A stretch of DNA of 38,497 nucleotides from a virus. Its lineage: Duplodnaviria; Heunggongvirae; Uroviricota; Caudoviricetes. Location of the stretch: IMG/VR virus record IMGVR_UViG_3300014533_000149. One strand, written 5' to 3'. The position numbers were made by a program, and so were the translations under genes. Below are positions 1 to 36,409 of this stretch, in pieces. A model generated the notes under the pieces. The model had not been told where the DNA came from and did no database searches. It saw only the letters and a list, made by a program, of their open reading frames with translations. How positions within the stretch are numbered: position 1 is the first letter of the stretch; every line of letters starts with the position of its first letter.

Positions 1-483
1 CTATCTGGTCAGGGTGTCGTACTGTTTTTCACAGACTCTTCCGGCTTCGGCTGCCCGGTCAGCATACTCTGCCAGTTGTCTGTTTCTCTCGAGAGATTTA
101 CTGAGCACGTCGGCAAGCAAAACTCCGGTGTCTGCGGCTGACGTCCCAGCGCCGACAATGGCGTTATACTGCCTGAGCTGCTCACGGATGGCAACGAGCT
201 GTTGCTGCAACCGGCCAGCGCGAGCGGCAGCATCAAGAGCATCATTGCGCGCCTGGTCGATCCTCTGCTGCGCTTCACGTTCATTGATCGATTTCTCCTG
301 TTCGTAGTGCTGACGAACTCTCTCATCTTCGGTTTTGCGGTCTTCTTTCGCCTGTGCATACCCGGCGTCGTACTGACGACTACCGTGTACATTCCAGGCA
401 ACAACCCCTGATATGACCAGAACAGCAAGCACCGCCACGATAAGCAACTGTTTCCAGTATGCTTTTACGAATGCCCAGATCAT
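1..483 (-). CDS. Rz: Rz-like i-spanin; C-terminus runs off the window start
   Basis: N-terminal TM helix then charged coiled-coil-like region rich in Q/R/E/A; ATG at 483 overlaps the endolysin stop (ATGA); contains an embedded lipoprotein ORF in another frame. Confidence 0.6.
9..245 (-). CDS. Rz1: Rz1-like o-spanin, outer-membrane lipoprotein embedded in Rz
   Basis: Alternate frame inside Rz; begins [13 protein letters not shown] with lipobox LAGC, followed by a Pro/Ser-rich short mature peptide. Confidence 0.5.
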   Translation of the reverse strand: MMLLMLPLALAGCSNSSLPSVSSSGSITPLSALGRQPQTPEFCLPTCSVNLSRETDNWQSMLTGQPKPEESVKNSTTP

Positions 484-4683: not shown

Positions 4684-4700
4684 ATTACCTTTATGGTAAT
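4684..4700. promoter_or_regulatory. Operator-like 17-bp palindrome ATTACC-TTTAT-GGTAAT
   Basis: Perfect dyad; member of a 13-copy intergenic family. Confidence 0.5.
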
Positions 4701-4736: not shown

Positions 4737-4756
4737 TACTGTATAAATATACAGTT
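4737..4756. promoter_or_regulatory. LexA (SOS) box
   Basis: TACTGTATAAATATACAGTT, a CTGT-N8-ACAG dyad with AT-rich spacer, about 18/20 match to the E. coli LexA consensus; ~20 bp upstream of the 4776 start codon. Confidence 0.65.
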
Positions 4757-4775
4757 ATTGCATGGAGAAGATAAG

Positions 4776-5033
4776 ATGCAGCGGTATCACTATCCACTGG
4801 AAGACGGATTTACCGAAAGGATTCACACGCCGGGAGGCGTCAGGTCACTGGTGGAGGGATCGCACTTGATGAAATTACTCCGGGATCTCGATAAGGATGG
4901 ATTTAATGTCGATGGCCCACTTGCCGAACTGACTGCACTGATTAACTACGTCACCAGCTCACAGATGTCTATGCGGGATCTGCAAACACATCTCGACTAT
5001 TGTGCCGAACAATTACGAAAACAAACCAGATAA
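4776..5033 (+). CDS. Small SOS-box-associated antirepressor-like protein (standalone Ant C-terminal-like domain)
   Basis: 85 aa from ATG 4776 with SD GGAGAAG; ~45% identical by eye to the C-terminal ~65 aa of the Bro-N protein at 5348..6040; LexA box immediately upstream. Confidence 0.55.
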   Translation: MQRYHYPLEDGFTERIHTPGGVRSLVEGSHLMKLLRDLDKDGFNVDGPLAELTALINYVTSSQMSMRDLQTHLDYCAEQLRKQTR

Positions 5034-5063
5034 GGTTTGCAATTACCAAGTGGAGTGCTTATA

Positions 5064-5080
5064 TTTACCTTTGAGGTAAA
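5064..5080. promoter_or_regulatory. Operator-like palindrome TTTACC-TTTGA-GGTAAA
   Basis: Perfect dyad, flanked by inverted repeat GGAGTGC (5052-5058) / GCACTCC (5091-5097). Confidence 0.45.
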
Positions 5081-5163
5081 TTTACATCGCACTCCTCTTG
5101 TGCCATAGTAATCGGGCACTGGCAAAATCCAGTGCCGGGATTGGTCTCCCGGATTACTACAGA

Positions 5164-5193
5164 GGCACATATGCCGCATAAGCGGTTTTTTTT
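5164..5193 (+). terminator. Candidate rho-independent terminator
   Basis: Short GC hairpins (GGCA-CATA-TGCC, CCGC-ATAA-GCGG) followed by an 8-T run; stems are short. Confidence 0.35.
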
Positions 5194-5347
5194 ATGTGTA
5201 AAGCGCACCTATTCTATGGTGGGCTGTGTGGGGGCACCGAAAGGTGCGCCGGGTTCCTTTGTAGCCGGTAAGACCAACTCTGCACAGTTCACCACCATCT
5301 GATTGGTCTCAGCGGTGGTGATTAACCTAACTACAAAGGTGATCGCC

Positions 5348-6040
5348 ATGAATACCAAACCTTCCATCTTTTCCTTTGAGTCATCCTGCCAGATCCGTAT
5401 GTTCATGATTGACGGAGAACCTTGGTTTGTCACCAAAGATGTGTGCAATGCTTTGAATATTGATGTTACACAAGCGAGAAAACTTGATAAAAAAGGCTGG
5501 AACAAAAAGGGGCTGTATTCAATACAGACCCCTGGTGGAATACAAGAACTATCCATCGTTTCAGAATCAGGTCTCTACATCCTTATTCTGCGTTGCAAAG
5601 AGGCAATGACTGAGGGAACGAGAGCATTCAGATTTCTTGAATGGGTTACAGGCGAGGTTCTTCCTCAGATCCGCCGCACCGGAAGTTACATTAAAAACTC
5701 GCTACCGCAGGAAGAACGCATAAAGATGGTTGCCGACCAGGTAGCCAACGCCACGGCGTCAGCAGTAATGCAGGCGATGAAGATAGAGAACAAAACCTAC
5801 AGTGCTCCACTGAAGCCCGGCTACCGTAGCCTGATTCATTCTCCGTCTGGTGTTCTCGGCCTGACGGAGAACTCACTGCTGATGAATCTGCTGAACCAGT
5901 TACAGGACGACGGGCACGACGTATCGGGCGCGGCGGCGGAGCTGACCACCATGTTCTGCTACATCGTTGGTGTGAGCAAATGCCTGCGTGATATCCAGAC
6001 GCACGCGGAGTACATCAACGACAAGGCTGGGTTCTTCTGA
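5348..6040 (+). CDS. Antirepressor (Ant)-like protein with Bro-N N-terminal domain
   Basis: ATG 5348 with SD AAAGGTGA; N-terminal region matches the Bro-N fold pattern (FMIDGEPWFVTKDVCNAL...); C-terminal ~65 aa paralogous to the 4776..5033 product. Confidence 0.65.
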   Translation: MNTKPSIFSFESSCQIRMFMIDGEPWFVTKDVCNALNIDVTQARKLDKKGWNKKGLYSIQTPGGIQELSIVSESGLYILILRCKEAMTEGTRAFRFLEWVTGEVLPQIRRTGSYIKNSLPQEERIKMVADQVANATASAVMQAMKIENKTYSAPLKPGYRSLIHSPSGVLGLTENSLLMNLLNQLQDDGHDVSGAAAELTTMFCYIVGVSKCLRDIQTHAEYINDKAGFF

Positions 6041-6111: not shown

Positions 6112-6128
6112 ATTACCTTACGGGTGAT
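6112..6128. promoter_or_regulatory. Operator-like imperfect palindrome ATTACC-TTACG-GGTGAT
   Basis: One half-site perfect, the other one mismatch. Confidence 0.35.
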
Positions 6129-6890: not shown

Positions 6891-7052
6891 ATGAAAAAAG
6901 CATTTGCTGCACTGTTCGTTTTGTTGTCTCTGGTAGCTTCAACTCAGGCTTTTGCCGGTCGTTGTCAGCACGACAGCGATACTGCCGCTGACGGCTCCCG
7001 CTGCGGTGGGCGTTCTGCGGATTCCCGCCCGGGTGGCGGTGGCATTCGTTAA
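6891..7052 (+). CDS. Small secreted peptide (53 aa) with signal peptide and two cysteines
   Basis: MKKAFAALFVLLSLVASTQAFA signal-like N-terminus, then a Gly/Arg/Cys-rich 31-aa tail; short ORF, speculative. Confidence 0.3.
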   Translation: MKKAFAALFVLLSLVASTQAFAGRCQHDSDTAADGSRCGGRSADSRPGGGGIR

Positions 7053-7075
7053 AAACAAGGCCGCGAAAGCGGCCT
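7051..7075 (-). terminator. Rho-independent terminator at the end of the late operon
   Basis: On the minus strand AGGCCGC-TTTC-GCGGCCT followed by TGTTTTT; sits just 3' of the last minus-strand gene (7084). Confidence 0.6.
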
Positions 7076-7087
7076 GTGACATGTCAC
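7076..7087. repeat. Perfect 12-bp palindrome GTGACATGTCAC (copy 1 of 2)
   Basis: Identical 12-mer recurs at 27393..27404. Confidence 0.5.
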
Positions 7088-7380
7088 GTCCCTTTTCTGA
7101 ATGATAGCCATTCGAAAAATGATGACATTCCACCGCAGACAACAGCAAAGATGATCCCACCAAAGAAGAGAATGCCAGCCTGCCACCACTCCCACCGCCA
7201 TACATCCACAGCGCCAACCATACCAACAATCGCTCCAACAAATGGAATATAGCTCACGATGAAAGCAATGGGGGCTGCAATTATCCAGTGCAATCCCCAC
7301 CATGATTCAAGCCCAGCCATAATTGCTGCCAACTGAAAAAGACCAACGACGATATAAACAATGAATCCTATAGCTTGCAT
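7084..7380 (-). CDS. Small multi-pass membrane protein (SieA-position candidate)
   Basis: 98 aa, ~3 hydrophobic helices, Trp-rich; SD AGGTGA upstream; follows the last large internal-protein gene. Confidence 0.5.
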   Translation of the reverse strand: MQAIGFIVYIVVGLFQLAAIMAGLESWWGLHWIIAAPIAFIVSYIPFVGAIVGMVGAVDVWRWEWWQAGILFFGGIIFAVVCGGMSSFFEWLSFRKGT

Positions 7381-23980: not shown

Positions 23981-24057
23981 GTGGCATTAGCTCAGTTGGA
24001 CAGAGCAACCGCCTTCTAAGCGGTTGGTCGCAGGTTCGAATCCTGCATGCCACGCCA
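23981..24057 (+). tRNA. tRNA-Arg (anticodon UCU)
   Basis: 77 nt; cloverleaf by hand: acceptor GTGGCAT/ATGCCAC, D-stem GCTC/GAGC, anticodon stem ACCGC/GCGGT with loop CTTCTAA, T-arm GCAGG-TTCGAAT-CCTGC, 3' CCA; differs from E. coli argU in stems as recalled. Confidence 0.85.
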
Positions 24058-24100
24058 GAATCACGCCTAAGGACCGTGATGCCAGAAGTTCCAAGTGCTT

Positions 24101-24144
24101 GGCGGTGATGGTTTCCCTTGAAGGACTATCACCGCCCTTTTTAC
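24101..24144 (+). terminator. Rho-independent terminator downstream of the tRNA
   Basis: GGCGGTGAT...ATCACCGCC stem followed by CTTTTT. Confidence 0.55.
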
Positions 24145-24220
24145 AGCAGGACGCCATTGCGATGACTTCATGCTGTAAACCCGTACAGCCACGGAAGGCA
24201 TAACTCATTGCTTCCAGTTC

Positions 24221-24245
24221 GCCCACTTCAGTGGGCTTTTTTTTC
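24221..24245 (+). terminator. Rho-independent terminator
   Basis: GCCCAC-TTCA-GTGGGC followed by 8-9 T. Confidence 0.65.
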
Positions 24246-24257
24246 TAGTGACTACTG

Positions 24258-24274
24258 ATTACCTTATGGGTAAT
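24258..24274. promoter_or_regulatory. Operator-like palindrome ATTACC-TTATG-GGTAAT
   Basis: Perfect dyad ~30 bp upstream of the 24306 start. Confidence 0.5.
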
Positions 24275-24305
24275 ATGCTGCAAACAAATAACACAAGGCC
24301 GTGAC

Positions 24306-25196
24306 ATGCTTGACTTCATCCGTGACATTTACTCCTCTTTCCGCCAAGCATCTCTTGAGCGGGTGAAAAGCCCGTTCCTTGGGGCATTTGTTTTTTCCTG
24401 GCTTTGCTTTAATTGGCAGATGTTAGCAATTCTATTTTTTAGTTCTAAGGATATTGAAAAGCGCCTTGCTATTATTAATGGCTCTTTCGGCATCGTCAGC
24501 TTTTTAATTGCGCCAATATGCACTACAGCATTGATAGTTATCCTTTTACCGCAAATTAATAAATTAATTACAATAATACAAGATAAACCTAACTCAGACA
24601 CAATTGAAATGAGCCTTGCATCTAAAATAAAGATCGCCGAACTGCAGCAACTATTAGCAGAAAATGAAGCAAGAAAGAAACTTGCTGATAAAAAAGAAGA
24701 ACGCTTCATTGAAGAGAATATTATTTCAATAAAAAAAGACCATGAAAAAGCAATAGATAACCTTAAAGACAAAGAAAGTAAAATCTTAAATCTCACGGAC
24801 ACAATAACTGAACTTCAGAGCAAACTGGTTAAAGCTGAGGCCACTCTCAAAGTTGAACAGGAGTCAAGATCCCAAGTGCAGAATGAATTGATTATTGAAA
24901 AAGAGAACAAGCGGAAATTAGAAGACAACATTCTGCACCTTAATTTAAGTTTAAAAAAAAACCAATCAGAATTGGCCATTGCAAAAGAAGCCTATGATAA
25001 TACCTTGATGGCTTATAATGAACTTAACACAACATTAAAAAAAGCAGAAAGCTCAATAATAAACTTCAATGCTAACTTTCCTTTTTTAACTGACATAAAT
25101 AACAGCACCCCAAATACATACTTAAAAATAAATAAAAATGCATGGGAGCATTTAGTTAGTTTAAATTTAAGTCTAAAGGAGAAAATACAAAAATAA
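24306..25196 (+). CDS. Membrane-anchored coiled-coil protein (moron; candidate exclusion/abortive-infection function)
   Basis: 296 aa; two hydrophobic helices in the first ~90 aa then a long Lys/Glu/Leu-rich coiled-coil-like region; strongly AT-rich; opposite strand to the flanking late genes. Confidence 0.55.
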   Translation: MLDFIRDIYSSFRQASLERVKSPFLGAFVFSWLCFNWQMLAILFFSSKDIEKRLAIINGSFGIVSFLIAPICTTALIVILLPQINKLITIIQDKPNSDTIEMSLASKIKIAELQQLLAENEARKKLADKKEERFIEENIISIKKDHEKAIDNLKDKESKILNLTDTITELQSKLVKAEATLKVEQESRSQVQNELIIEKENKRKLEDNILHLNLSLKKNQSELAIAKEAYDNTLMAYNELNTTLKKAESSIINFNANFPFLTDINNSTPNTYLKINKNAWEHLVSLNLSLKEKIQK

Positions 25197-25219: not shown

Positions 25220-26689
25220 TTACTCATACGGGTCATAATCTATTATAGCCTTACCCTGCTGCTGGCGCGGATCATTAAGTTTTTTTGTGACCGGAAAAGC
25301 AAACGTCAGCAGTAGCGCATCGCCTTTACCCGGCGAACGCCCAAGCCGCTCCTTGATATCTTCCTTCGGTTCGATAACGATTTTACCGTCCACTCGAACT
25401 TTGTACTCTGCCGCCGACAGGTCGTCCGCTGTTTCCTGGTCATCCAGCATGCCGCCCAGCCTCAGCCATGTCTTGCATGAGTTGAACATCTCCCCACGCT
25501 TGTTGAGCATCTGCGGGTCAGTAGACGCGCCACCGAACGGAACAAGTTGCCACGTCCGCCCCCAGCCGTCACCGATGGACTTCAGCCCGGTGCCGTAACC
25601 AAAGTCGATAAACACCGCATCAGCCTGGTACTGGTCTTCAAAGTCGGCGATGCGCTTCGCCATAATCAGATCGTCAGTGGTCTTGTTTCCCGTCCAGAGG
25701 ACTTTGCTGTGCAGCCCCTGTCGCAGGTATATCACCGCGTCATCCACGCCGGAATACGCCGGGTCGACGCCAATAATCACCGGAGCGTGCGCCACCTGCG
25801 CAGCGGTCACGACGCGCTTCATCGCCTCATCGGTCAGCCCGGTCGGGATGAACTGCAGTTCTGACGCGTCAGGGAAGATCCCCCGCACACGGACCTTCAC
25901 GAAGTCGCTGTCCTCGCCATGGTCTTCAATCCATTTTTGAATCTGCTCTTTGTTCGTTCCTTCGACGGTACGGCTGTCGATCTGCTTCGTAACCCAGCGG
26001 TGTTTATATTTGCGGAAGCATTCCCTGAAACGCCCGGAGTTACGCGTAGGGTTTCCGAACGCTACCCAGATGATTTCCGTGTCTTCGTCCGTCAGCGCAC
26101 CCTCGGCCACCTCCCAAACTTTATCAGCAATGTTTGACGCCTCATCGAATACCACGATGATCCGCTTACGCTCGTTGTGCAGGCCGGCGAACGCCTCGGT
26201 GTTGTGCTCAGACCACGGGATTGCGTCAGCGCGCCAGCGTTTATCGTGGCCCGGATCATTGCTGTACATGGCTGTTGCTGGGGTAGAGAACCAGTCTTTC
26301 GTGATGGACAGGTTTGCCCACTTAATCACTTCAGGCCATGTCTTGGTACGCAGCTGATTTTCGGTGTTGGCAGTGACTACTGCTTTGCAGTCTTCGCAGG
26401 TTGACATACCCCAGTTCAGGAGCATGGAAATACCCGCACTTTTCCCTATGCCGTGGCCTGAAGAAACGGCAATCATCAGCGGCTGATGACGGGTTTCTGG
26501 GTTCCTGAGGTGCTCACCAACCGTATCGAGCATCCATCTTTGCCAGTTTCTTGGTCCGGATGCATGCGCCAGCTCTGTACCCTCTTCCCCCCACGGGAAC
26601 GCATAGAGGGCATAGCCAAGCGGATCGTGAGTGAACCCTGCTATATCCTCGATCAACTGCTCTTCAGGAGATAACGATGTATCTGTCAC
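25220..26689 (-). CDS. terL: Terminase large subunit
   Basis: 489 aa; Walker A-like SSGHGIGKSAG and acidic nuclease-like C-terminal half; GTG start overlapping the terS stop (GTGA) with SD AGGATGG. Confidence 0.8.
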   Translation of the reverse strand: MTDTSLSPEEQLIEDIAGFTHDPLGYALYAFPWGEEGTELAHASGPRNWQRWMLDTVGEHLRNPETRHQPLMIAVSSGHGIGKSAGISMLLNWGMSTCEDCKAVVTANTENQLRTKTWPEVIKWANLSITKDWFSTPATAMYSNDPGHDKRWRADAIPWSEHNTEAFAGLHNERKRIIVVFDEASNIADKVWEVAEGALTDEDTEIIWVAFGNPTRNSGRFRECFRKYKHRWVTKQIDSRTVEGTNKEQIQKWIEDHGEDSDFVKVRVRGIFPDASELQFIPTGLTDEAMKRVVTAAQVAHAPVIIGVDPAYSGVDDAVIYLRQGLHSKVLWTGNKTTDDLIMAKRIADFEDQYQADAVFIDFGYGTGLKSIGDGWGRTWQLVPFGGASTDPQMLNKRGEMFNSCKTWLRLGGMLDDQETADDLSAAEYKVRVDGKIVIEPKEDIKERLGRSPGKGDALLLTFAFPVTKKLNDPRQQQGKAIIDYDPYE

Positions 26690-27282
26690 TGATTACCATC
26701 CTGACGTTCTTTGAGTCGCTTCCTGGCTGCTGCTATGCGATCAGCAATTGTCACATTCACATTAACATCCAGACGTTCTTTGAACGCGTTGACATCAACA
26801 TGCTTACCAATCAGCTCAAGGTTCTTCACCTTGTCAGGCCATTTAATTTTTTTGAGGATTGTCTCTATCGAATCCTCGTTCATGTTCATGATGGTCGATG
26901 ACAGATCAAAGCCACTAAGCGTAGTGCGCCAGATTTTCGGCCACTCACGGATTGGTTTAAGGCTCCCATCGTCGTTGAGGATGTCGATCACGTCCATCTG
27001 GTCGATCTCCACCAGGCGCATGAGAACGTAATCAGCACTGACGCGCATTCGTTTGTTGCGCTCCTCCATCAACTCGGCAATCCGTTTTTGAATGCGTTCA
27101 TCGCGCATCATGACACTGGCTTTAACTGCCGCTGTATTTGGAGAGAATCCTGCGTTAATCGCTGCCTGAGTCTGGTTTTCAGGCGTTTTGATGTATGACT
27201 GGCAATAAGCCTCCTGCATTGCTGTTAGTGGCTTAAATTGCGTTGATTTGCGTTTATAGGTTTTAGGTTCAGCAGGCATCAT
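26686..27282 (-). CDS. terS: Terminase small subunit
   Basis: About 198 aa from ATG 27282; small-terminase-like N-terminal DNA-binding region; directly upstream of terL. Confidence 0.65.
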   Translation of the reverse strand: MMPAEPKTYKRKSTQFKPLTAMQEAYCQSYIKTPENQTQAAINAGFSPNTAAVKASVMMRDERIQKRIAELMEERNKRMRVSADYVLMRLVEIDQMDVIDILNDDGSLKPIREWPKIWRTTLSGFDLSSTIMNMNEDSIETILKKIKWPDKVKNLELIGKHVDVNAFKERLDVNVNVTIADRIAAARKRLKERQDGNQ

Positions 27283-27289
27283 AACCACC

Positions 27290-27321
27290 GTGGTAATAGT
27301 TACCGTTGTGGTAATAGTACC
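27290..27321. repeat. Tandem direct repeats GTGGTAATAGTTACC / GTGGTAATAGTACC
   Basis: Two copies 18 bp apart immediately upstream of terS; each contains a GGTAAT half-site in everted arrangement. Confidence 0.5.
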
Positions 27322-27322
27322 A

Positions 27323-27351
27323 TGCAAAATAAAGCCGCCATAGTTGGCGGC
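27323..27351 (-). terminator. Rho-independent terminator between early/nin genes and the late operon
   Basis: On the minus strand GCCGCC-AACTAT-GGCGGC followed by TTTATTTTG. Confidence 0.6.
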
Positions 27352-27392
27352 AGTATTCAAAACCCATCAAATTCATCATGCATAATCTACTC

Positions 27393-27404
27393 GTGACATG
27401 TCAC
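27393..27404. repeat. Perfect 12-bp palindrome GTGACATGTCAC (copy 2 of 2)
   Basis: Identical to 7076..7087; overlaps the stop codon of the 27401..27742 gene, ~110 bp upstream of terS. Confidence 0.5.
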
Positions 27405-27742
27405 ACTATTAATTTCGTTTCATGCCAGCCTTTAGTCACCCAGCATTGCGAGTCACCATTACACGGGCATGAATTAACTGGAACTCTCTCGCCGCACTTA
27501 CCGCAACATTTTCTGCTGATCGATTTTATACGCCCGCGCACGCGTGCATCATCCTGGTGGATCAGTAACGCTATATACTCACCAAATTCGTAAGGCGCAC
27601 GCCCGGGGCGACGCGTGGCACAGTTACGCTCCAGCATTTCAATTTCCTGAGCATCAAGCACAATTTCCAGCTTACGCACACCGGATTCAGCTTGTCTGGC
27701 TCTCTGAGCGGCTTTGCGCTCTGCTGCTGATTTAGCCATCAA
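27401..27742 (-). CDS. Putative small DNA-binding protein with C-terminal Cys cluster (candidate late regulator)
   Basis: 113 aa; N-terminus resembles a ribbon-helix-helix pattern; C-terminus CCGKCGERVPVNSCPCNGDSQC; last gene before the terminator and terS. Confidence 0.45.
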   Translation of the reverse strand: MMAKSAAERKAAQRARQAESGVRKLEIVLDAQEIEMLERNCATRRPGRAPYEFGEYIALLIHQDDARVRGRIKSISRKCCGKCGERVPVNSCPCNGDSQCWVTKGWHETKLIV

Positions 27743-29198: not shown

Positions 29199-29507
29199 CT
29201 ATGCCTGACTTAAGCCGAGCATTTTCCATAAATAGAACTTTTGCCCGCTGTTTTTCTGCTTCAAGCTCAACGCGCAGCTTCCNNNNNNNNNNNNNNNNNN
29301 NNNNNNNNNNNNNNNNNNNNNNNNNNNNNNNNNNNNNNNNNNNNNNTCCCGTTCATCCAGCAGTGCCAGCGCGATATCTGGCGAAAAGTGCTTCATAAAA
29401 TCGTTAAGCGCATTAATTCGCTGATCGAAGGGCATTACAGGTGCTTCACCAGCAATTTTTGTTTTTTCAGCGATTTCACGAAGCTTTTGATAATCAATCT
29501 TGCTCAC
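29199..29507 (-). CDS. ead/Ea22-like early protein, interrupted by an N run
   Basis: Coiled-coil-like N-terminus; the reading frame crosses 64 N so frame and length are unreliable. Confidence 0.3.
   Translation of the reverse strand: MSKIDYQKLREIAEKTKIAGEAPVMPFDQRINALNDFMKHFSPDIALALLDERXXXXXXXXXXXXXXXXXXXXXXGSCALSLKQKNSGQKFYLWKMLGLSQA
29283..29346. other. Run of 64 N (assembly gap or masked sequence)
   Basis: Directly visible; not a multiple of 3. Confidence 0.99.
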
Positions 29508-30349: not shown

Positions 30350-30366
30350 TTTACCTCTAAGGTAAT
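30350..30366. promoter_or_regulatory. Operator-like palindrome TTTACC-TCTAA-GGTAAT
   Basis: Overlaps the RBS/5'UTR of the 30347 gene and the -10 of the candidate promoter. Confidence 0.5.
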
Positions 30367-30393
30367 TAAAAACCACATAAGACACGAAATCAA
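30365..30393 (-). promoter_or_regulatory. Candidate sigma70 promoter for the nin-like operon
   Basis: Minus strand: -35 TTGATT (30393..30388), 17-bp spacer, -10 TTTAAT (30370..30365); flanked by two operator-like palindromes. Confidence 0.4.
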
Positions 30394-30411
30394 TAGATTT
30401 TAGAATATTTT

Positions 30412-30428
30412 ATTACCCAACAGGTAAT
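30412..30428. promoter_or_regulatory. Operator-like palindrome ATTACC-CAACA-GGTAAT
   Basis: Perfect dyad just upstream of the candidate -35. Confidence 0.5.
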
Positions 30429-32742: not shown

Positions 32743-32759
32743 TTTACCTGTTGGGTAAT
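32743..32759. promoter_or_regulatory. Switch-region operator-like site TTTACC-TGTTG-GGTAAT
   Basis: Near-perfect dyad ~55 bp upstream of the repressor-like start. Confidence 0.5.
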
Positions 32760-32813: not shown

Positions 32814-33398
32814 ATGAAAAGTATCCAGGACGTCCGCAGGCAAAATCTCAACGACTTGATCGACCGTGAATTCAATGGTGTTCAGACGCGGATGGCAGAA
32901 AAACTTGGAACTCAGGCAAATCTGGTAAACCGCTGGGCTCTTGGCAAGAAGGTTATCGGCGACCAGGTTGCGCGAAAAATTGAAGCTGCCGCCAATAAAC
33001 CCCGTAACTGGCTTGATATCGATCGCTCGCTTTCTCAGGAAGGTTTTCAGCCTGTCGGCCCAAGCGACATTGGTCAGCTGGCGGCTCACAACCTGGAACG
33101 CTGGATGAGCGAAAGCCGCGACCTTTCAACACAGGGAAAACTTCACCGCGCATCCGGCGTCGCCCAGGTGACAATCAGCCGCCTGTTAAACAATGAGGTC
33201 AGCGTTTCCATTTCCACCCTGGAGAATGTTGCATCCGCATTCGGGCGTCACGGCTATGAATTACTGATTCACCCGCACGACCCTGCGACCATCAACTATG
33301 ACCGCTCGCGCTACGCATTGTTACCCGAAACCGAGAAAGCAAAGATCGAAAGTTACATTGAATTTGTCATCAACCAGAACGAAAAAAACAAACAATAA
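32814..33398 (+). CDS. Tandem-HTH repressor-like protein, no peptidase S24 autocleavage domain seen (putative prophage repressor)
   Basis: 194 aa with two Cro/C1-type HTH-like segments (about aa 5-65 and 100-165); weak SD; divergent from the cro-like gene; own terminator downstream. Confidence 0.6.
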   Translation: MKSIQDVRRQNLNDLIDREFNGVQTRMAEKLGTQANLVNRWALGKKVIGDQVARKIEAAANKPRNWLDIDRSLSQEGFQPVGPSDIGQLAAHNLERWMSESRDLSTQGKLHRASGVAQVTISRLLNNEVSVSISTLENVASAFGRHGYELLIHPHDPATINYDRSRYALLPETEKAKIESYIEFVINQNEKNKQ

Positions 33399-33454: not shown

Positions 33455-33471
33455 ATTACCTTAAGGGTAAT
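33455..33471. promoter_or_regulatory. Operator-like palindrome ATTACC-TTAAG-GGTAAT
   Basis: Perfect dyad ~19 bp upstream of the candidate -35. Confidence 0.5.
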
Positions 33472-33489
33472 TTTTTTAACTCATATCTA

Positions 33490-33518
33490 TTGACACCAAA
33501 CCAAATACGCATAATCAT
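33490..33518 (+). promoter_or_regulatory. Candidate PL-like early promoter
   Basis: -35 TTGACA (33490..33495), 17-bp spacer, weak -10 AATCAT (33513..33518) running into the next operator; same layout as the 30365..30393 promoter. Confidence 0.4.
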
Positions 33519-33533
33519 TACCTCAACGGTAAC
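33517..33533. promoter_or_regulatory. Operator-like palindrome ATTACC-TCAAC-GGTAAC
   Basis: Overlaps the candidate -10/+1 and supplies the SD (GAGGTAA) for the 33552 ORF. Confidence 0.45.
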
Positions 33534-36109: not shown

Positions 36110-36409
36110 GTGAGAAAGTTAAGCCGACTTGAAAAATATCACATGAATAAGGTTTCAATGCGCAGTCCGTCAAAGATTGTCGCCGTTACTCCTGCGGCGA
36201 TAGAGATCGAAAAACGCGCGATTGAAAGAGAGAAAAAAGGGCAATTCCGCATTGCCGCTCACCTTTGGCTTCAGTGTATGGATGTTGCTTCTGGTGATGT
36301 TGAACGTGCAAGGATCGCGGTTCGCAGGGACCAATGTATCACAAAAGGTAACGGCCTTCGCCGTGGCGACTATAGCGGCATAGGATGTTGTGGGGTGGTT
36401 TATGACTAA
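36110..36409 (+). CDS. Hypothetical small protein
   Basis: 99 aa from GTG 36110 with SD AGAGGG; function unknown. Confidence 0.35.
   Translation: MRKLSRLEKYHMNKVSMRSPSKIVAVTPAAIEIEKRAIEREKKGQFRIAAHLWLQCMDVASGDVERARIAVRRDQCITKGNGLRRGDYSGIGCCGVVYD

What the first reader, a model, noticed from the sequence alone, without database searches (positions are those of the whole stretch)
27283..27742. Terminator and tandem repeats immediately upstream of terS mark the early-to-late control point
A clear minus-strand terminator (27323..27351) separates the early/nin genes from terS, and two tandem repeats (GTGGTAATAGTTACC, GTGGTAATAGTACC) lie between it and the terS start. No Q-like antiterminator is recognisable. 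The gene just upstream encodes a small protein with an RHH-like N-terminus and a C-terminal Cys cluster, a plausible late activator or antiterminator; the repeats may be its binding sites or terminase recognition sites.
Basis: partly seen in the sequence, partly recalled or inferred. Interest (0 to 1): 0.55.

Follow-up and report, generated by a model that had tools for sequence, protein, structure and literature searches.

The report
Repressor operators at late-operon promoter
The terminator and "tandem repeats" in front of the phage packaging gene are real, but the repeats are two side-by-side binding sites for the prophage's own repressor sitting on a probable late promoter, an arrangement already annotated in the related phage epsilon15; the small neighbouring protein appears to have a different DNA site of its own.

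Summary
The window is a phiV10/epsilon15-like (Uetakevirus) prophage. In detail: there is a minus-strand intrinsic terminator (27351..27326), an 18-bp-period repeat, and terS.

The interpretation needs correcting. The repeats are two abutting 17-bp palindromes, ATTACC-N5-GGTAAT (O1 27315..27299, O2 27297..27281). This motif occurs 13 times in the window against 1.1 expected, mostly at the heads of transcription units and in the immunity region. The epsilon15 GenBank record annotates the homologous site as a repressor-binding site. The window encodes a homologue of the SPC32H Rep repressor.

O1 overlaps a conserved extended -10 (TGnTACTAT), and O2 covers the terS ribosome-binding site and start codon. 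In 79 close relatives every half-site base is invariant, while spacer bases vary. The junction is therefore best read as an early-operon terminator followed by a Rep-controlled late promoter.

The small upstream protein (phrog_536) is weakly RHH-like with a 4-Cys C-terminus, as guessed. Its family also occurs in phages that have Q or Ogr, and not always near late genes. Its likely cognate site is a 12-bp palindrome, GTGAC-NN-GTCAC, at its own stop codon. This site is conserved across unrelated phages and appears undescribed; its function is unknown.

The parts
27401..27739 (-). Small gene (112 aa), phrog_536. It has an N-terminal basic helix, a weakly supported RHH-like beta-alpha-alpha region, and a C-terminal C-x2-C...C...C cluster. 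It is the last gene of the early-right operon.
27393..27404 (.). 12-bp perfect palindrome GTGACATGTCAC, containing the TGA stop codon (27403..27401) of the small gene. It is the probable cognate site of the small protein (inferred).
   Evidence: GTGAC-NN-GTCAC lies at or within 5 nt of the stop of homologous genes in epsilon15, Tyrion, BUCT711, ZF40, N15, a P2-like Yersinia phage, AH07 and 9 of 14 GTDB prophage loci.
27357..27383 (-). 8-codon mini-ORF (ATGCATGATGAATTTGATGGGTTTTGA). It is a deletion remnant of a 68-aa ORF present in about a quarter of close relatives.
27326..27351 (-). Intrinsic terminator ending the early-right operon. The stem is 27351..27334 and the T-run is 27333..27326.
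   Evidence: It is conserved in epsilon15 (annotated there as stem_loop 39646..39672), Tyrion, and loci L092, L100 and L102. It is absent in BUCT711.
27314..27322 (-). Candidate extended -10 of a late promoter, TGgTACTAT. The predicted transcription start is near 27307. Its last two bases (AT) are the first two bases of O1.
   Evidence: Sequence inference. TG and TAnnAT are kept in all seven relatives compared from other genera, while the 'n' of TGn takes G, A or T and TACTAT becomes TATTAT in close relatives. The register matches the PL-like promoter TTGACA-17-AATCAT|TACC at 33490..33533.
27299..27315 (-). Operator O1, ATTACCACAACGGTAAC. It has 1 mismatch to ATTACC-N5-GGTAAT.
   Evidence: It is homologous to the epsilon15 protein_bind 'repressor' feature at 12..27.
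27281..27297 (-). Operator O2, ATTACCACGGTGGTTAT, with 1 mismatch. It covers the Shine-Dalgarno GGTGG (27289..27285) and the first ATG of terS. It is weaker or degenerate in other genera.
26686..27282 (-). terS (terminase small subunit), the first gene of the roughly 20-kb structural operon. The homologous start codon is probably the second ATG, at 27279.
   Evidence: Pfam Terminase_2, E = 1e-29. RefSeq annotation of TL-2011b.
32814..33398 (+). Prophage repressor (Rep), the presumed binder of O1 and O2.
   Evidence: Full-length match to SPC32H Rep, PDB 5d50, E = 4e-42. PHROG 'transcriptional regulator/repressor' families.
7051..7087 (-). Second exact copy of GTGACATGTCAC (7076..7087). It contains the TGA stop of the last late-operon gene (7380..7084) and abuts the terminator AGGCCGCtttcGCGGCCTtgttttt (7075..7051).
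   Evidence: The same arrangement occurs in epsilon15 (19517), Tyrion (20377) and BUCT711 (18526).

Best explanation
The 118-bp gap between the small gene and terS is where the early-right operon ends and the structural (late) operon begins in a phiV10/epsilon15-like prophage.

Transcripts from the early-right operon end at the intrinsic terminator (27351..27326). Immediately downstream, and partly embedded in the terminator, lies a promoter with an extended -10 (TGgTACTAT, 27322..27314) and no recognisable -35.

Two abutting 17-bp operators for the prophage repressor Rep sit on this promoter. O1 spans roughly -8 to +9. O2 spans the Shine-Dalgarno sequence and the first ATG of terS. Rep is a homologue of SPC32H Rep, which binds DNA as a tetramer carrying two pairs of DNA-binding domains.

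In the lysogen, Rep bound here would shut off or roadblock the packaging and head-tail operon. The same motif would do this at the portal, tailspike-lysis, nin-like, PL and PR units. When the LexA-controlled antirepressor Ant inactivates Rep, all units would be released.

**Shown:** the presence, enrichment and positions of the motif; the Rep homology; the conservation pattern.

**Inferred:** that Rep binds these sites; that TGnTACTAT is an active promoter; that no further late activator is required.
For: 1. ATTACC-N5-GGTAAT occurs 13 times (2 or fewer mismatches) against 1.14 expected, with 0 of 100 shuffles reaching that count. Sites at 4684, 6112, 23644, 24258, 27281, 27299, 30350, 30412, 32743, 33455 and 33517 lie at the 5' ends of transcription units and flank the repressor gene.
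2. GenBank NC_004775.2 (epsilon15) annotates the homologous sequence TTACCAAAACGGTAAT (12..27) as protein_bind 'repressor, lysogeny', together with six other sites of the same consensus. It also annotates the terminator just upstream.
3. The window's repressor matches SPC32H Rep (PDB 5d50) over its full length, E = 4e-42. Rep binds DNA as a tetramer (PMC9638917), which fits paired operators.
4. The same motif set sits at the same relative positions in epsilon15, Tyrion and BUCT711. TGnTAnnAT plus O1 also lies upstream of a different terS in Rahnella and Advenella prophages.
5. Among 18 haplotypes from 79 close relatives, 0 of 24 half-site positions vary, while 4 of 11 spacer or linker positions vary, some with 3-4 alleles (Fisher p = 0.006). 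The 'n' of TGn takes three different bases, and the only -10 change moves it towards consensus (TACTAT to TATTAT).
6. At the PL-like promoter (TTGACA-17-AATCAT|TACC) the operator abuts the -10 in the same register. The site at 6112 has the same TACTAT|TACC junction.
7. BUCT711 has lost the terminator to a moron insertion but keeps TGGTATTAT plus O1. The promoter and operator, not the terminator, are therefore the invariant elements.
Against: - No binding or transcript data were available. The epsilon15 feature is itself an annotation, and the primary papers (Kropinski 2007; Kim & Ryu 2013; Kim 2016) are not in the held library.
- The proposed promoter has no -35, and the promoter scan did not list it. 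It could be weak or need an activator.
- O2 is degenerate in BUCT711 (4 mismatches) and has 2 mismatches in epsilon15 and Tyrion. Some of its conservation may come from Shine-Dalgarno and start-codon constraints.
- Simultaneous derepression does not by itself explain any early-to-late delay. Read-through of the terminator from PR remains possible.
Confidence: 0.72

Rival explanations
1. Q-like or terminator-proximal antitermination. The small RHH-Zn protein binds the GTGACATGTCAC palindrome just upstream of the terminator (and the copy at the end of the late operon). It would make RNA polymerase coming from PR, or from a weak promoter overlapping the palindrome, read through into terS. This could coexist with Rep control.
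For: - The gene occupies the position of lambda Q: last in the early-right operon, immediately before a terminator and the late genes.
- Exact copies of the palindrome sit 0-54 nt upstream of terminators at operon ends in four Uetakeviruses.
- GTGACA is a 5/6 match to the -35 consensus. GTGACA-18-CATGAT in the window and GTGACA-17-TAAATT in epsilon15 and Tyrion would start a very short terminated RNA, as at lambda PR'.
- In Vibrio phages, copies lie upstream of the lysis genes and about 20 nt upstream of terS.
Against: - The same gene-plus-palindrome pair occurs in N15, ZF40 and AH07, which carry Q-like genes, and in a P2-like phage. In these it is often not next to late genes or terminators: N15 gene 46 is followed directly by gene 47, and in AH07 it is in the early-left operon beside xis.
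- The -10 of the putative promoter is not conserved. It is coding sequence in relatives that have the 68-aa ORF, and it is absent in L095, L100 and L102.
- The third copy in epsilon15 and Tyrion belongs to a leftward moron, so rightward polymerase would meet the hairpin before the site.
- In BUCT711 and L091 no terminator follows the palindrome.
- There is no similarity to any Q family.
Confidence: 0.12
2. The repeats are binding sites of the small upstream protein acting as a late activator.
For: The gene is adjacent to the repeats, and its product looks like a DNA-binding protein.
Against: - The repeat motif is the immunity-region operator, and it is dispersed over at least 11 sites, including the early-operon promoters.
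- Sites that overlap -10/+1 and the ribosome-binding site are in repressor positions, not activator positions.
- Homologous small genes in N15, ZF40, AH07 and Yersinia phages are not accompanied by ATTACC-N5-GGTAAT. They are accompanied by GTGAC-NN-GTCAC.
Confidence: 0.04
3. The repeats are a terminase small-subunit recognition (pac) site.
For: They lie immediately upstream of and overlap the start of terS, where pac or cos sites often lie. From my own knowledge of the Kropinski 2007 abstract, epsilon15 is reported with a 'nonredundant' genome length, which suggests headful packaging.
Against: - The same 17-bp palindrome occurs at many unrelated places, including both sides of the repressor gene, which is not expected for a pac site.
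- The motif is also kept upstream of a non-homologous terS in Rahnella and Advenella prophages.
- No packaging-end data were found.
Confidence: 0.05
4. The operators act only as a transcriptional roadblock or translation block behind the terminator, with no promoter. Late genes would be expressed solely by read-through from PR.
For: There is no -35 element. O2 covers the ribosome-binding site and ATG. All right-arm genes are on one strand.
Against: - TG and TAnnAT are conserved across genera while neighbouring bases drift.
- A strong terminator lies directly upstream, and no antiterminator is recognisable.
- BUCT711 keeps the -10 although the upstream context has been replaced.
Confidence: 0.15

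Closest known systems
Epsilon15 repressor-binding sites (GenBank NC_004775.2 features; Kropinski et al. 2007, Virology 369:234, not readable here)
   Same: - Homologous position: last early gene gp49, then a terminator, then a site, then terS.
- Same consensus, ATTACC-N5-GGTAAT.
- Same dispersed distribution ahead of terS, the portal operon, the tail fibre gene, the PL/PR region and the nin-like region.
   Different: - The window is phiV10-type. Its repressor is reported as only 42% identical to that of epsilon15 (PMC9782041), yet it keeps the same operator consensus.
- Here a second abutting operator (O2) fits the consensus well; epsilon15 annotates only one.
- The overlap with an extended -10 is my inference and is not in the record.
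SPC32H Rep/Ant antirepression switch (Kim & Ryu 2013; Kim et al. 2016; PDB 5d50 and 5d4z)
   Same: - The window encodes a full-length Rep homologue (E = 4e-42).
- It also encodes an Ant homologue behind a perfect LexA box with C4/isrK RNAs.
- Tetrameric Rep with two pairs of DNA-binding domains fits paired operators.
   Different: Which operators Rep occupies in this phage, and whether one tetramer spans O1 and O2 (18 bp centre to centre), is untested.
Dispersed-operator immunity systems: P1 C1 operators and mycobacteriophage L5 stoperators (own knowledge)
   Same: One repressor has many sites spread across the genome and directly silences several operons, including morphogenetic ones.
   Different: - The sites here are symmetric 17-mers placed on promoters or ribosome-binding sites, not asymmetric intragenic stoperators.
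- P1 late genes additionally need the activator Lpa.
Lambda Q / PR' / tR' late control
   Same: The last gene of the early-right operon is followed by a terminator and then the late genes. A weak -35-like element overlaps the palindrome.
   Different: - No Q homologue is present.
- The promoter upstream of the terminator is not conserved.
- The late operon has its own repressor-operated promoter downstream of the terminator.
MatP-matS (matS = GTGACRNYGTCAC; PMC6907758)
   Same: - The palindrome at the small gene's stop has the same GTGAC/GTCAC half-sites.
- The phage family is found in Enterobacterales, Vibrio and Aeromonas, hosts which I recall as MatP-containing; this was not tested.
   Different: - The phage site is 12 bp (N2), not 13 bp (N3).
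- There is no significant sequence relationship (hhalign E = 0.11).
- The phage protein lacks MatP's N-terminal bundle and coiled coil and has a Cys4 cluster instead.

Membership tests
Epsilon15/SPC32H-type Rep operator | 17-bp palindrome matching ATTACC-N5-GGTAAT | tested here: met
   O1 and O2 each have 1 mismatch.
Epsilon15/SPC32H-type Rep operator | Cognate repressor encoded in the same genome | tested here: met
   The product of 32814..33398 matches PDB 5d50 Rep at E = 4e-42 over its full length.
Epsilon15/SPC32H-type Rep operator | Same motif present at the immunity-region promoters | tested here: met
   Sites at 32743, 33455 and 33517 flank the repressor gene. The PL-like promoter overlaps the site at 33517.
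Epsilon15/SPC32H-type Rep operator | Half-sites under stronger constraint than the spacer | tested here: met
   0 of 24 half-site positions vary against 4 of 11 spacer or linker positions in 18 haplotypes, p = 0.006.
Epsilon15/SPC32H-type Rep operator | Physical binding by Rep | not testable with these tools
   Needs EMSA or footprinting. The primary papers are not held.
Intrinsic (rho-independent) terminator | GC-rich hairpin followed by a U-run, more stable than shuffled sequence | tested here: met
   7-bp stem with 6 GC pairs plus TTTATTTT. Fold energy -16.4 kcal/mol, z = -3.55.
Sigma-70 extended -10 promoter | TGn immediately upstream of a TAnnnT hexamer, conserved across relatives | tested here: met
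   TGgTACTAT in the window. TG and TAnnAT are kept in epsilon15, Tyrion, BUCT711, L092, L100 and L102.
Sigma-70 extended -10 promoter | Transcription start about 7 nt downstream | not testable with these tools
   No transcript data are available.
Lambda-type Q antitermination module | Q-family protein (Pfam Antiterm / Phage_antitermQ and similar) | tested here: not met
   No Pfam, NCBIfam or PDB-sequence match for the small protein or the neighbouring early genes.
Lambda-type Q antitermination module | Constitutive promoter immediately upstream of the terminator, conserved among relatives | tested here: inconclusive
   GTGACA-18-CATGAT in the window and GTGACA-17-TAAATT in epsilon15 and Tyrion. 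It is absent or coding in other relatives.
Ribbon-helix-helix (CopG/Arc/MetJ) DNA-binding proteins | Beta-alpha-alpha fold | tested here: inconclusive
Ribbon-helix-helix (CopG/Arc/MetJ) DNA-binding proteins | Cognate inverted-repeat DNA site | tested here: inconclusive
   GTGAC-NN-GTCAC co-occurs with the gene across unrelated phages. Providencia homologues that lack the site have a different predicted beta-strand. Binding itself is untested.
MatP/matS | 13-bp site GTGACRNYGTCAC | tested here: not met
   All phage copies are 12 bp, with N2 between the half-sites.
MatP/matS | Protein homologous to MatP | tested here: not met
   hhalign of A1 against E. coli MatP gives E = 0.11 over 37 columns.
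pac / terminase recognition site | Sequence confined to the packaging-initiation region | tested here: not met
   The motif is dispersed over at least 11 sites, including the immunity region.
P2 Ogr / P4 Delta zinc-finger late activators | Cys-X2-Cys-X22-Cys-X4-Cys protein acting at TGT-N12-ACA near -55 of late promoters | not tested
   The Cys spacing here is C-x2-C-x~10-13-C-x~5-8-C, and no family hit was found. A P2-like Yersinia phage carries both this gene and a separate small gene at the far end of its genome annotated only as 'transcriptional regulator', which may be an Ogr-like regulator. The TGT-N12-ACA motif was not searched.

The most novel reading that the evidence does not exclude
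The small phrog_536 protein and the 12-bp palindrome GTGAC-NN-GTCAC form an undescribed, portable protein-site module of temperate phages.

- One copy of the site is embedded in, or lies within 5 nt of, the gene's own stop codon. This holds in Uetakeviruses, N15-like, P2-like, ZF40 and AH07 phages.
- Further exact copies lie at operon ends next to terminators. In Uetakeviruses the two main copies bracket the roughly 20-kb structural operon.
- In Vibrio phages, copies lie upstream of the lysis genes and of terS.
- The half-sites equal those of host matS.

The module could therefore act in two ways. It could be a terminator-proximal regulator with a Q-like role in phages that lack Q. Or it could organise or bridge phage DNA in a MatP-like way, or compete with MatP.
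Probability: 0.3. Interest if true: 0.65.

Novelty: new member of a known kind. Interest (0 to 1): 0.33.

Why it matters
For the finding as written, the value is corrective. The 'control point' is an ordinary terminator followed by repressor operators of a kind already annotated in epsilon15. It implies that in this common E. coli prophage group, found in 502 of 5426 complete genomes, the structural genes are held off directly by the prophage repressor, not by a dedicated late regulator. This bears on how induction through the LexA-Ant-Rep pathway would release virion production.

The side observation could open a new question. A small DNA-binding protein has a matS-like site fixed at its own stop codon across unrelated phages. 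No paper in the library mentions the motif in a phage context.

Tried and rejected
- **Rfam:** the whole-window search found nothing in 27283..27742, only C4, isrK and a tRNA elsewhere.
- **Promoter scan:** it found only GTGACA-18-CATGAT (1 site against 2.7 expected). I rejected this as a conserved promoter because its -10 is coding sequence in relatives that have a 68-aa ORF.
- **Direct search for the repeat unit:** GGTAACTATTACCAC gave no other good copies. Only the palindromic reading revealed the family.
- **Small protein against databases:** Pfam, NCBIfam and PDB sequence searches gave no hits. Foldseek against PDB gave nothing significant. The afdb50 library was unavailable.
- **MatP comparison:** hhalign against MatP was not significant.
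- **Genome scan with alignment A1:** The single-protein scan gave 15 loci.
- **Primary papers:** Kropinski 2007 and Kim & Ryu 2013 are not held. The epsilon15 packaging paper says nothing about pac sites or genome ends.
- **Heteroimmune relative for an operator-covariation test:** every Uetakevirus examined shares the same operator consensus, so this test could not be done. AH07 turned out to be an unrelated myovirus.
- **RNA-level reading of the palindrome (hairpin or boxB-like):** judged unlikely. It would give only a 4-bp stem, and the central dinucleotide varies while the half-sites are fixed.

Full report
**Context.** The 1.5 kb around the finding is 92-98% identical to phiV10, TL-2011b, PAS61 and other Uetakevirus (epsilon15-like) podoviruses. 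The 138-bp intergenic segment occurs in 502 of 5426 complete E. coli genomes. The right arm of the prophage is on the minus strand. It runs from the replication and nin-like genes to the small gene (27739..27401), then terS (27282/27279..26686; Pfam Terminase_2, E = 1e-29), terL, the portal and tail genes, and ends at the gene at 7380..7084.

**Observation check.**
- The terminator is GCCGCCaactatGGCGGC plus TTTATTTTG (27351..27326). The scan found it. It folds at -16.4 kcal/mol, z = -3.55.
- The two repeats are at 27290..27304 and 27308..27321, with an exact 11-nt core 18 bp apart.
- The small protein has an invariant CxxC and two further near-invariant Cys in a 57-member alignment.
- No Q-like protein is detectable among the early genes.

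**What the repeats are.** The epsilon15 GenBank record carries a 'protein_bind: repressor, lysogeny' feature at 12..27, just upstream of terS. It also annotates a terminator at the very end of the record and six further repressor sites. Together these define the palindrome ATTACC-N5-GGTAAT.

Searching the window for that pattern gives 13 matches with 2 or fewer mismatches, against 1.14 expected; 0 of 100 shuffles reached 13.
- O1, ATTACCACAACGGTAAC (27315..27299)
- O2, ATTACCACGGTGGTTAT (27297..27281)

The others lie at the heads of transcription units:
- ahead of the tailspike-lysis unit (4684)
- next to ant (6112)
- ahead of the portal operon (23644)
- ahead of a plus-strand moron (24258)
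- a pair ahead of the nin-like genes (30350 and 30412)
- between cro-like and rep (32743)
- a pair at the PL-like promoter (33455 and 33517)

The window's repressor (32814..33398) is a full-length homologue of SPC32H Rep (PDB 5d50, E = 4e-42). Rep binds DNA as a tetramer (PMC9638917). Epsilon15, Tyrion and BUCT711 have the same motif at the same relative positions.

**Conservation test.** I compared 79 close relatives, which give 18 haplotypes.
- None of the 24 half-site positions of O1 and O2 varies.
- 4 of the 11 spacer or linker positions vary, some with three or four alleles (Fisher p = 0.006).

Positions that belong to the 'direct repeat' reading, such as the C of CCAC at 27308 and 27290, are among the variable ones. 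The palindromic-operator reading therefore fits better than a tandem-repeat reading.

**A probable late promoter.** Directly upstream of O1 is TGgTACTAT (27322..27314), an extended -10 whose final AT is the start of O1.
- TG and TAnnAT are kept in epsilon15 (TGTTACTAT), Tyrion (TGGTACTAT) and BUCT711 (TGGTATTAT). They are also kept in Rahnella and Advenella prophages that have a different terS (TGTTATGAT).
- In close relatives the 'n' takes G, A or T. The only change in the hexamer improves it, from TACTAT to TATTAT.
- The PL-like promoter (TTGACA-17-AATCAT|TACC) has the operator in the same register. The nin-like promoter has the operator in its spacer, with a second operator over the next gene's ribosome-binding site and ATG.
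- BUCT711 has lost the terminator to an SOS-regulated umuD-like moron but keeps the -10 and O1.

I therefore read the region as the early-operon terminator followed by a Rep-operated late promoter, with O2 over the Shine-Dalgarno sequence and start codon. Rep binding and promoter activity are inferred, not shown.

**The small protein.** Its family (phrog_536, 146 clusters at 50% identity) is not specific to this genome position.
- It occurs in N15 (gene 46), phiKO2, ZF40 and AH07. N15, ZF40 and AH07 have Q-like genes.
- It occurs in a P2-like Yersinia phage after gpA, and in Vibrio phages.
- In AH07 it sits in the early-left operon next to xis/int.

This argues against a dedicated late-activator role.

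A different sequence travels with the gene: the 12-bp palindrome GTGAC-NN-GTCAC.
- In the window, GTGACATGTCAC (27404..27393) contains the gene's TGA stop codon.
- The same holds in epsilon15, Tyrion, BUCT711, N15-type loci (GTGACTGGTCAC, 15 distinct contexts), the Yersinia phage (GTGACGCGTCAC) and AH07 (GTGACCTGTCAC).
- In ZF40, Xenorhabdus and Rahnella rivi the stop codon is elsewhere and the palindrome follows 2-4 nt later. Its conservation is therefore not a coding constraint.
- A 10-specified-base motif is expected about 0.04 times in a whole 38-kb window.

Extra exact copies exist:
- Window 7076..7087 contains the stop codon of the last late-operon gene and abuts a terminator.
- The equivalent site is present in epsilon15, Tyrion and BUCT711.
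- A third copy lies at the end of a leftward moron in epsilon15 and Tyrion.
- N15 has three identical copies.
- Four Vibrio-type loci each have two copies, one about 140-235 nt downstream of the small gene and one just upstream of terS. The terS-proximal copy lies about 20 nt before the ATG in the two loci where that was checked.

Providencia homologues lack the palindrome and have a quite different predicted beta-strand, GFVIPQWQVES against GxRKLELxLD. That is what a change of DNA specificity in an RHH protein would look like.

The half-sites are those of host matS (GTGACRNYGTCAC; PMC6907758), but with one base pair less between them. MatP is not detectably homologous. No paper in the library contains the 12-mer in a phage context. 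I could not establish a function.

**Rival readings.**
- *Q-like role.* This is suggested by the gene's position, by the proximity of the sites to terminators, and by a -35-like GTGACA. The putative promoter is not conserved. The module also occurs in phages that have Q and away from terminators. One copy is oriented for a leftward gene. I give this about 0.12.
- *pac site.* The dispersal of the motif contradicts this reading (about 0.05).
- *Repeats as the small protein's sites.* About 0.04.
- *Roadblock only, with no promoter.* This remains possible (about 0.15).

**Verdict.** The terminator and repeats are an ordinary arrangement, already annotated in epsilon15: an operon-end terminator plus prophage-repressor operators on the late-operon start. 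The interesting residue is the small protein with its matS-like palindrome at its own stop codon, which appears undescribed and deserves a direct binding test.

Noticed in passing
window 27393..27404 and 7076..7087; also L088 2142/19517/39612, L089 2702/20377, L090 431/18526/26462, L112 28550/33237/39269, L005 4505/7220, L106 3501/6026, L165 22826/34430: The 12-bp palindrome GTGAC-NN-GTCAC has matS-like half-sites. It is fixed at the stop codon of the small phrog_536 gene in many unrelated phages. It recurs at other operon ends next to terminators, and upstream of terS in Vibrio phages.
   Followed up: partly
window 27357..27383: This 8-codon mini-ORF is the remnant of a 68-aa ORF (MPKIRYDLEDMRDN...) that about a quarter of close relatives carry between the small gene and the terminator.
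   Followed up: yes
L090 (BUCT711) 34..430, L091 and L095 downstream of the small gene: In some relatives, SOS-regulated morons are inserted immediately after the palindrome, between the small gene and terS. They have perfect LexA boxes, and the BUCT711 insert encodes an umuD-like gene. This junction is a hot spot for moron insertion.
   Followed up: partly
window 4739..6040: This is a P22-immI-like antirepressor module. It comprises a perfect LexA box CTGTATAAATATACAG (4739..4754), isrK (5116..5192), C4 antisense RNA (5212..5299) and ant (5303..6040). Rep operators lie at 4684 and 6112.
   Followed up: partly
window 23981..25196: A tRNA-Arg(tct) and a 296-aa plus-strand ORF of unknown function (coiled-coil-like, phrog_13369) are inserted between terL and the portal operon. 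The ORF has its own perfect Rep operator at 24258..24274.
   Followed up: no
window 29283..29346: A run of 64 N (masked or unknown bases) lies inside an early-region gene.
   Followed up: no
window 30350..30428 and 33455..33533; L088 33340..33373: Rep operators often come in pairs. The start-to-start spacing is 62 bp at the nin-like and PL-like promoters. The pairs abut at terS (18 bp) and in the epsilon15 PR region (17 bp). This suggests looping or tetramer binding.
   Followed up: no
window 36110..36409: A PerC/ANR-like small regulator gene lies in the early-left operon (Pfam PerC, E = 6e-7). The epsilon15 record annotates the homologue as 'transcriptional activator'. Its target is unknown, and it could be an alternative candidate for a late or host-directed activator.
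   Followed up: no
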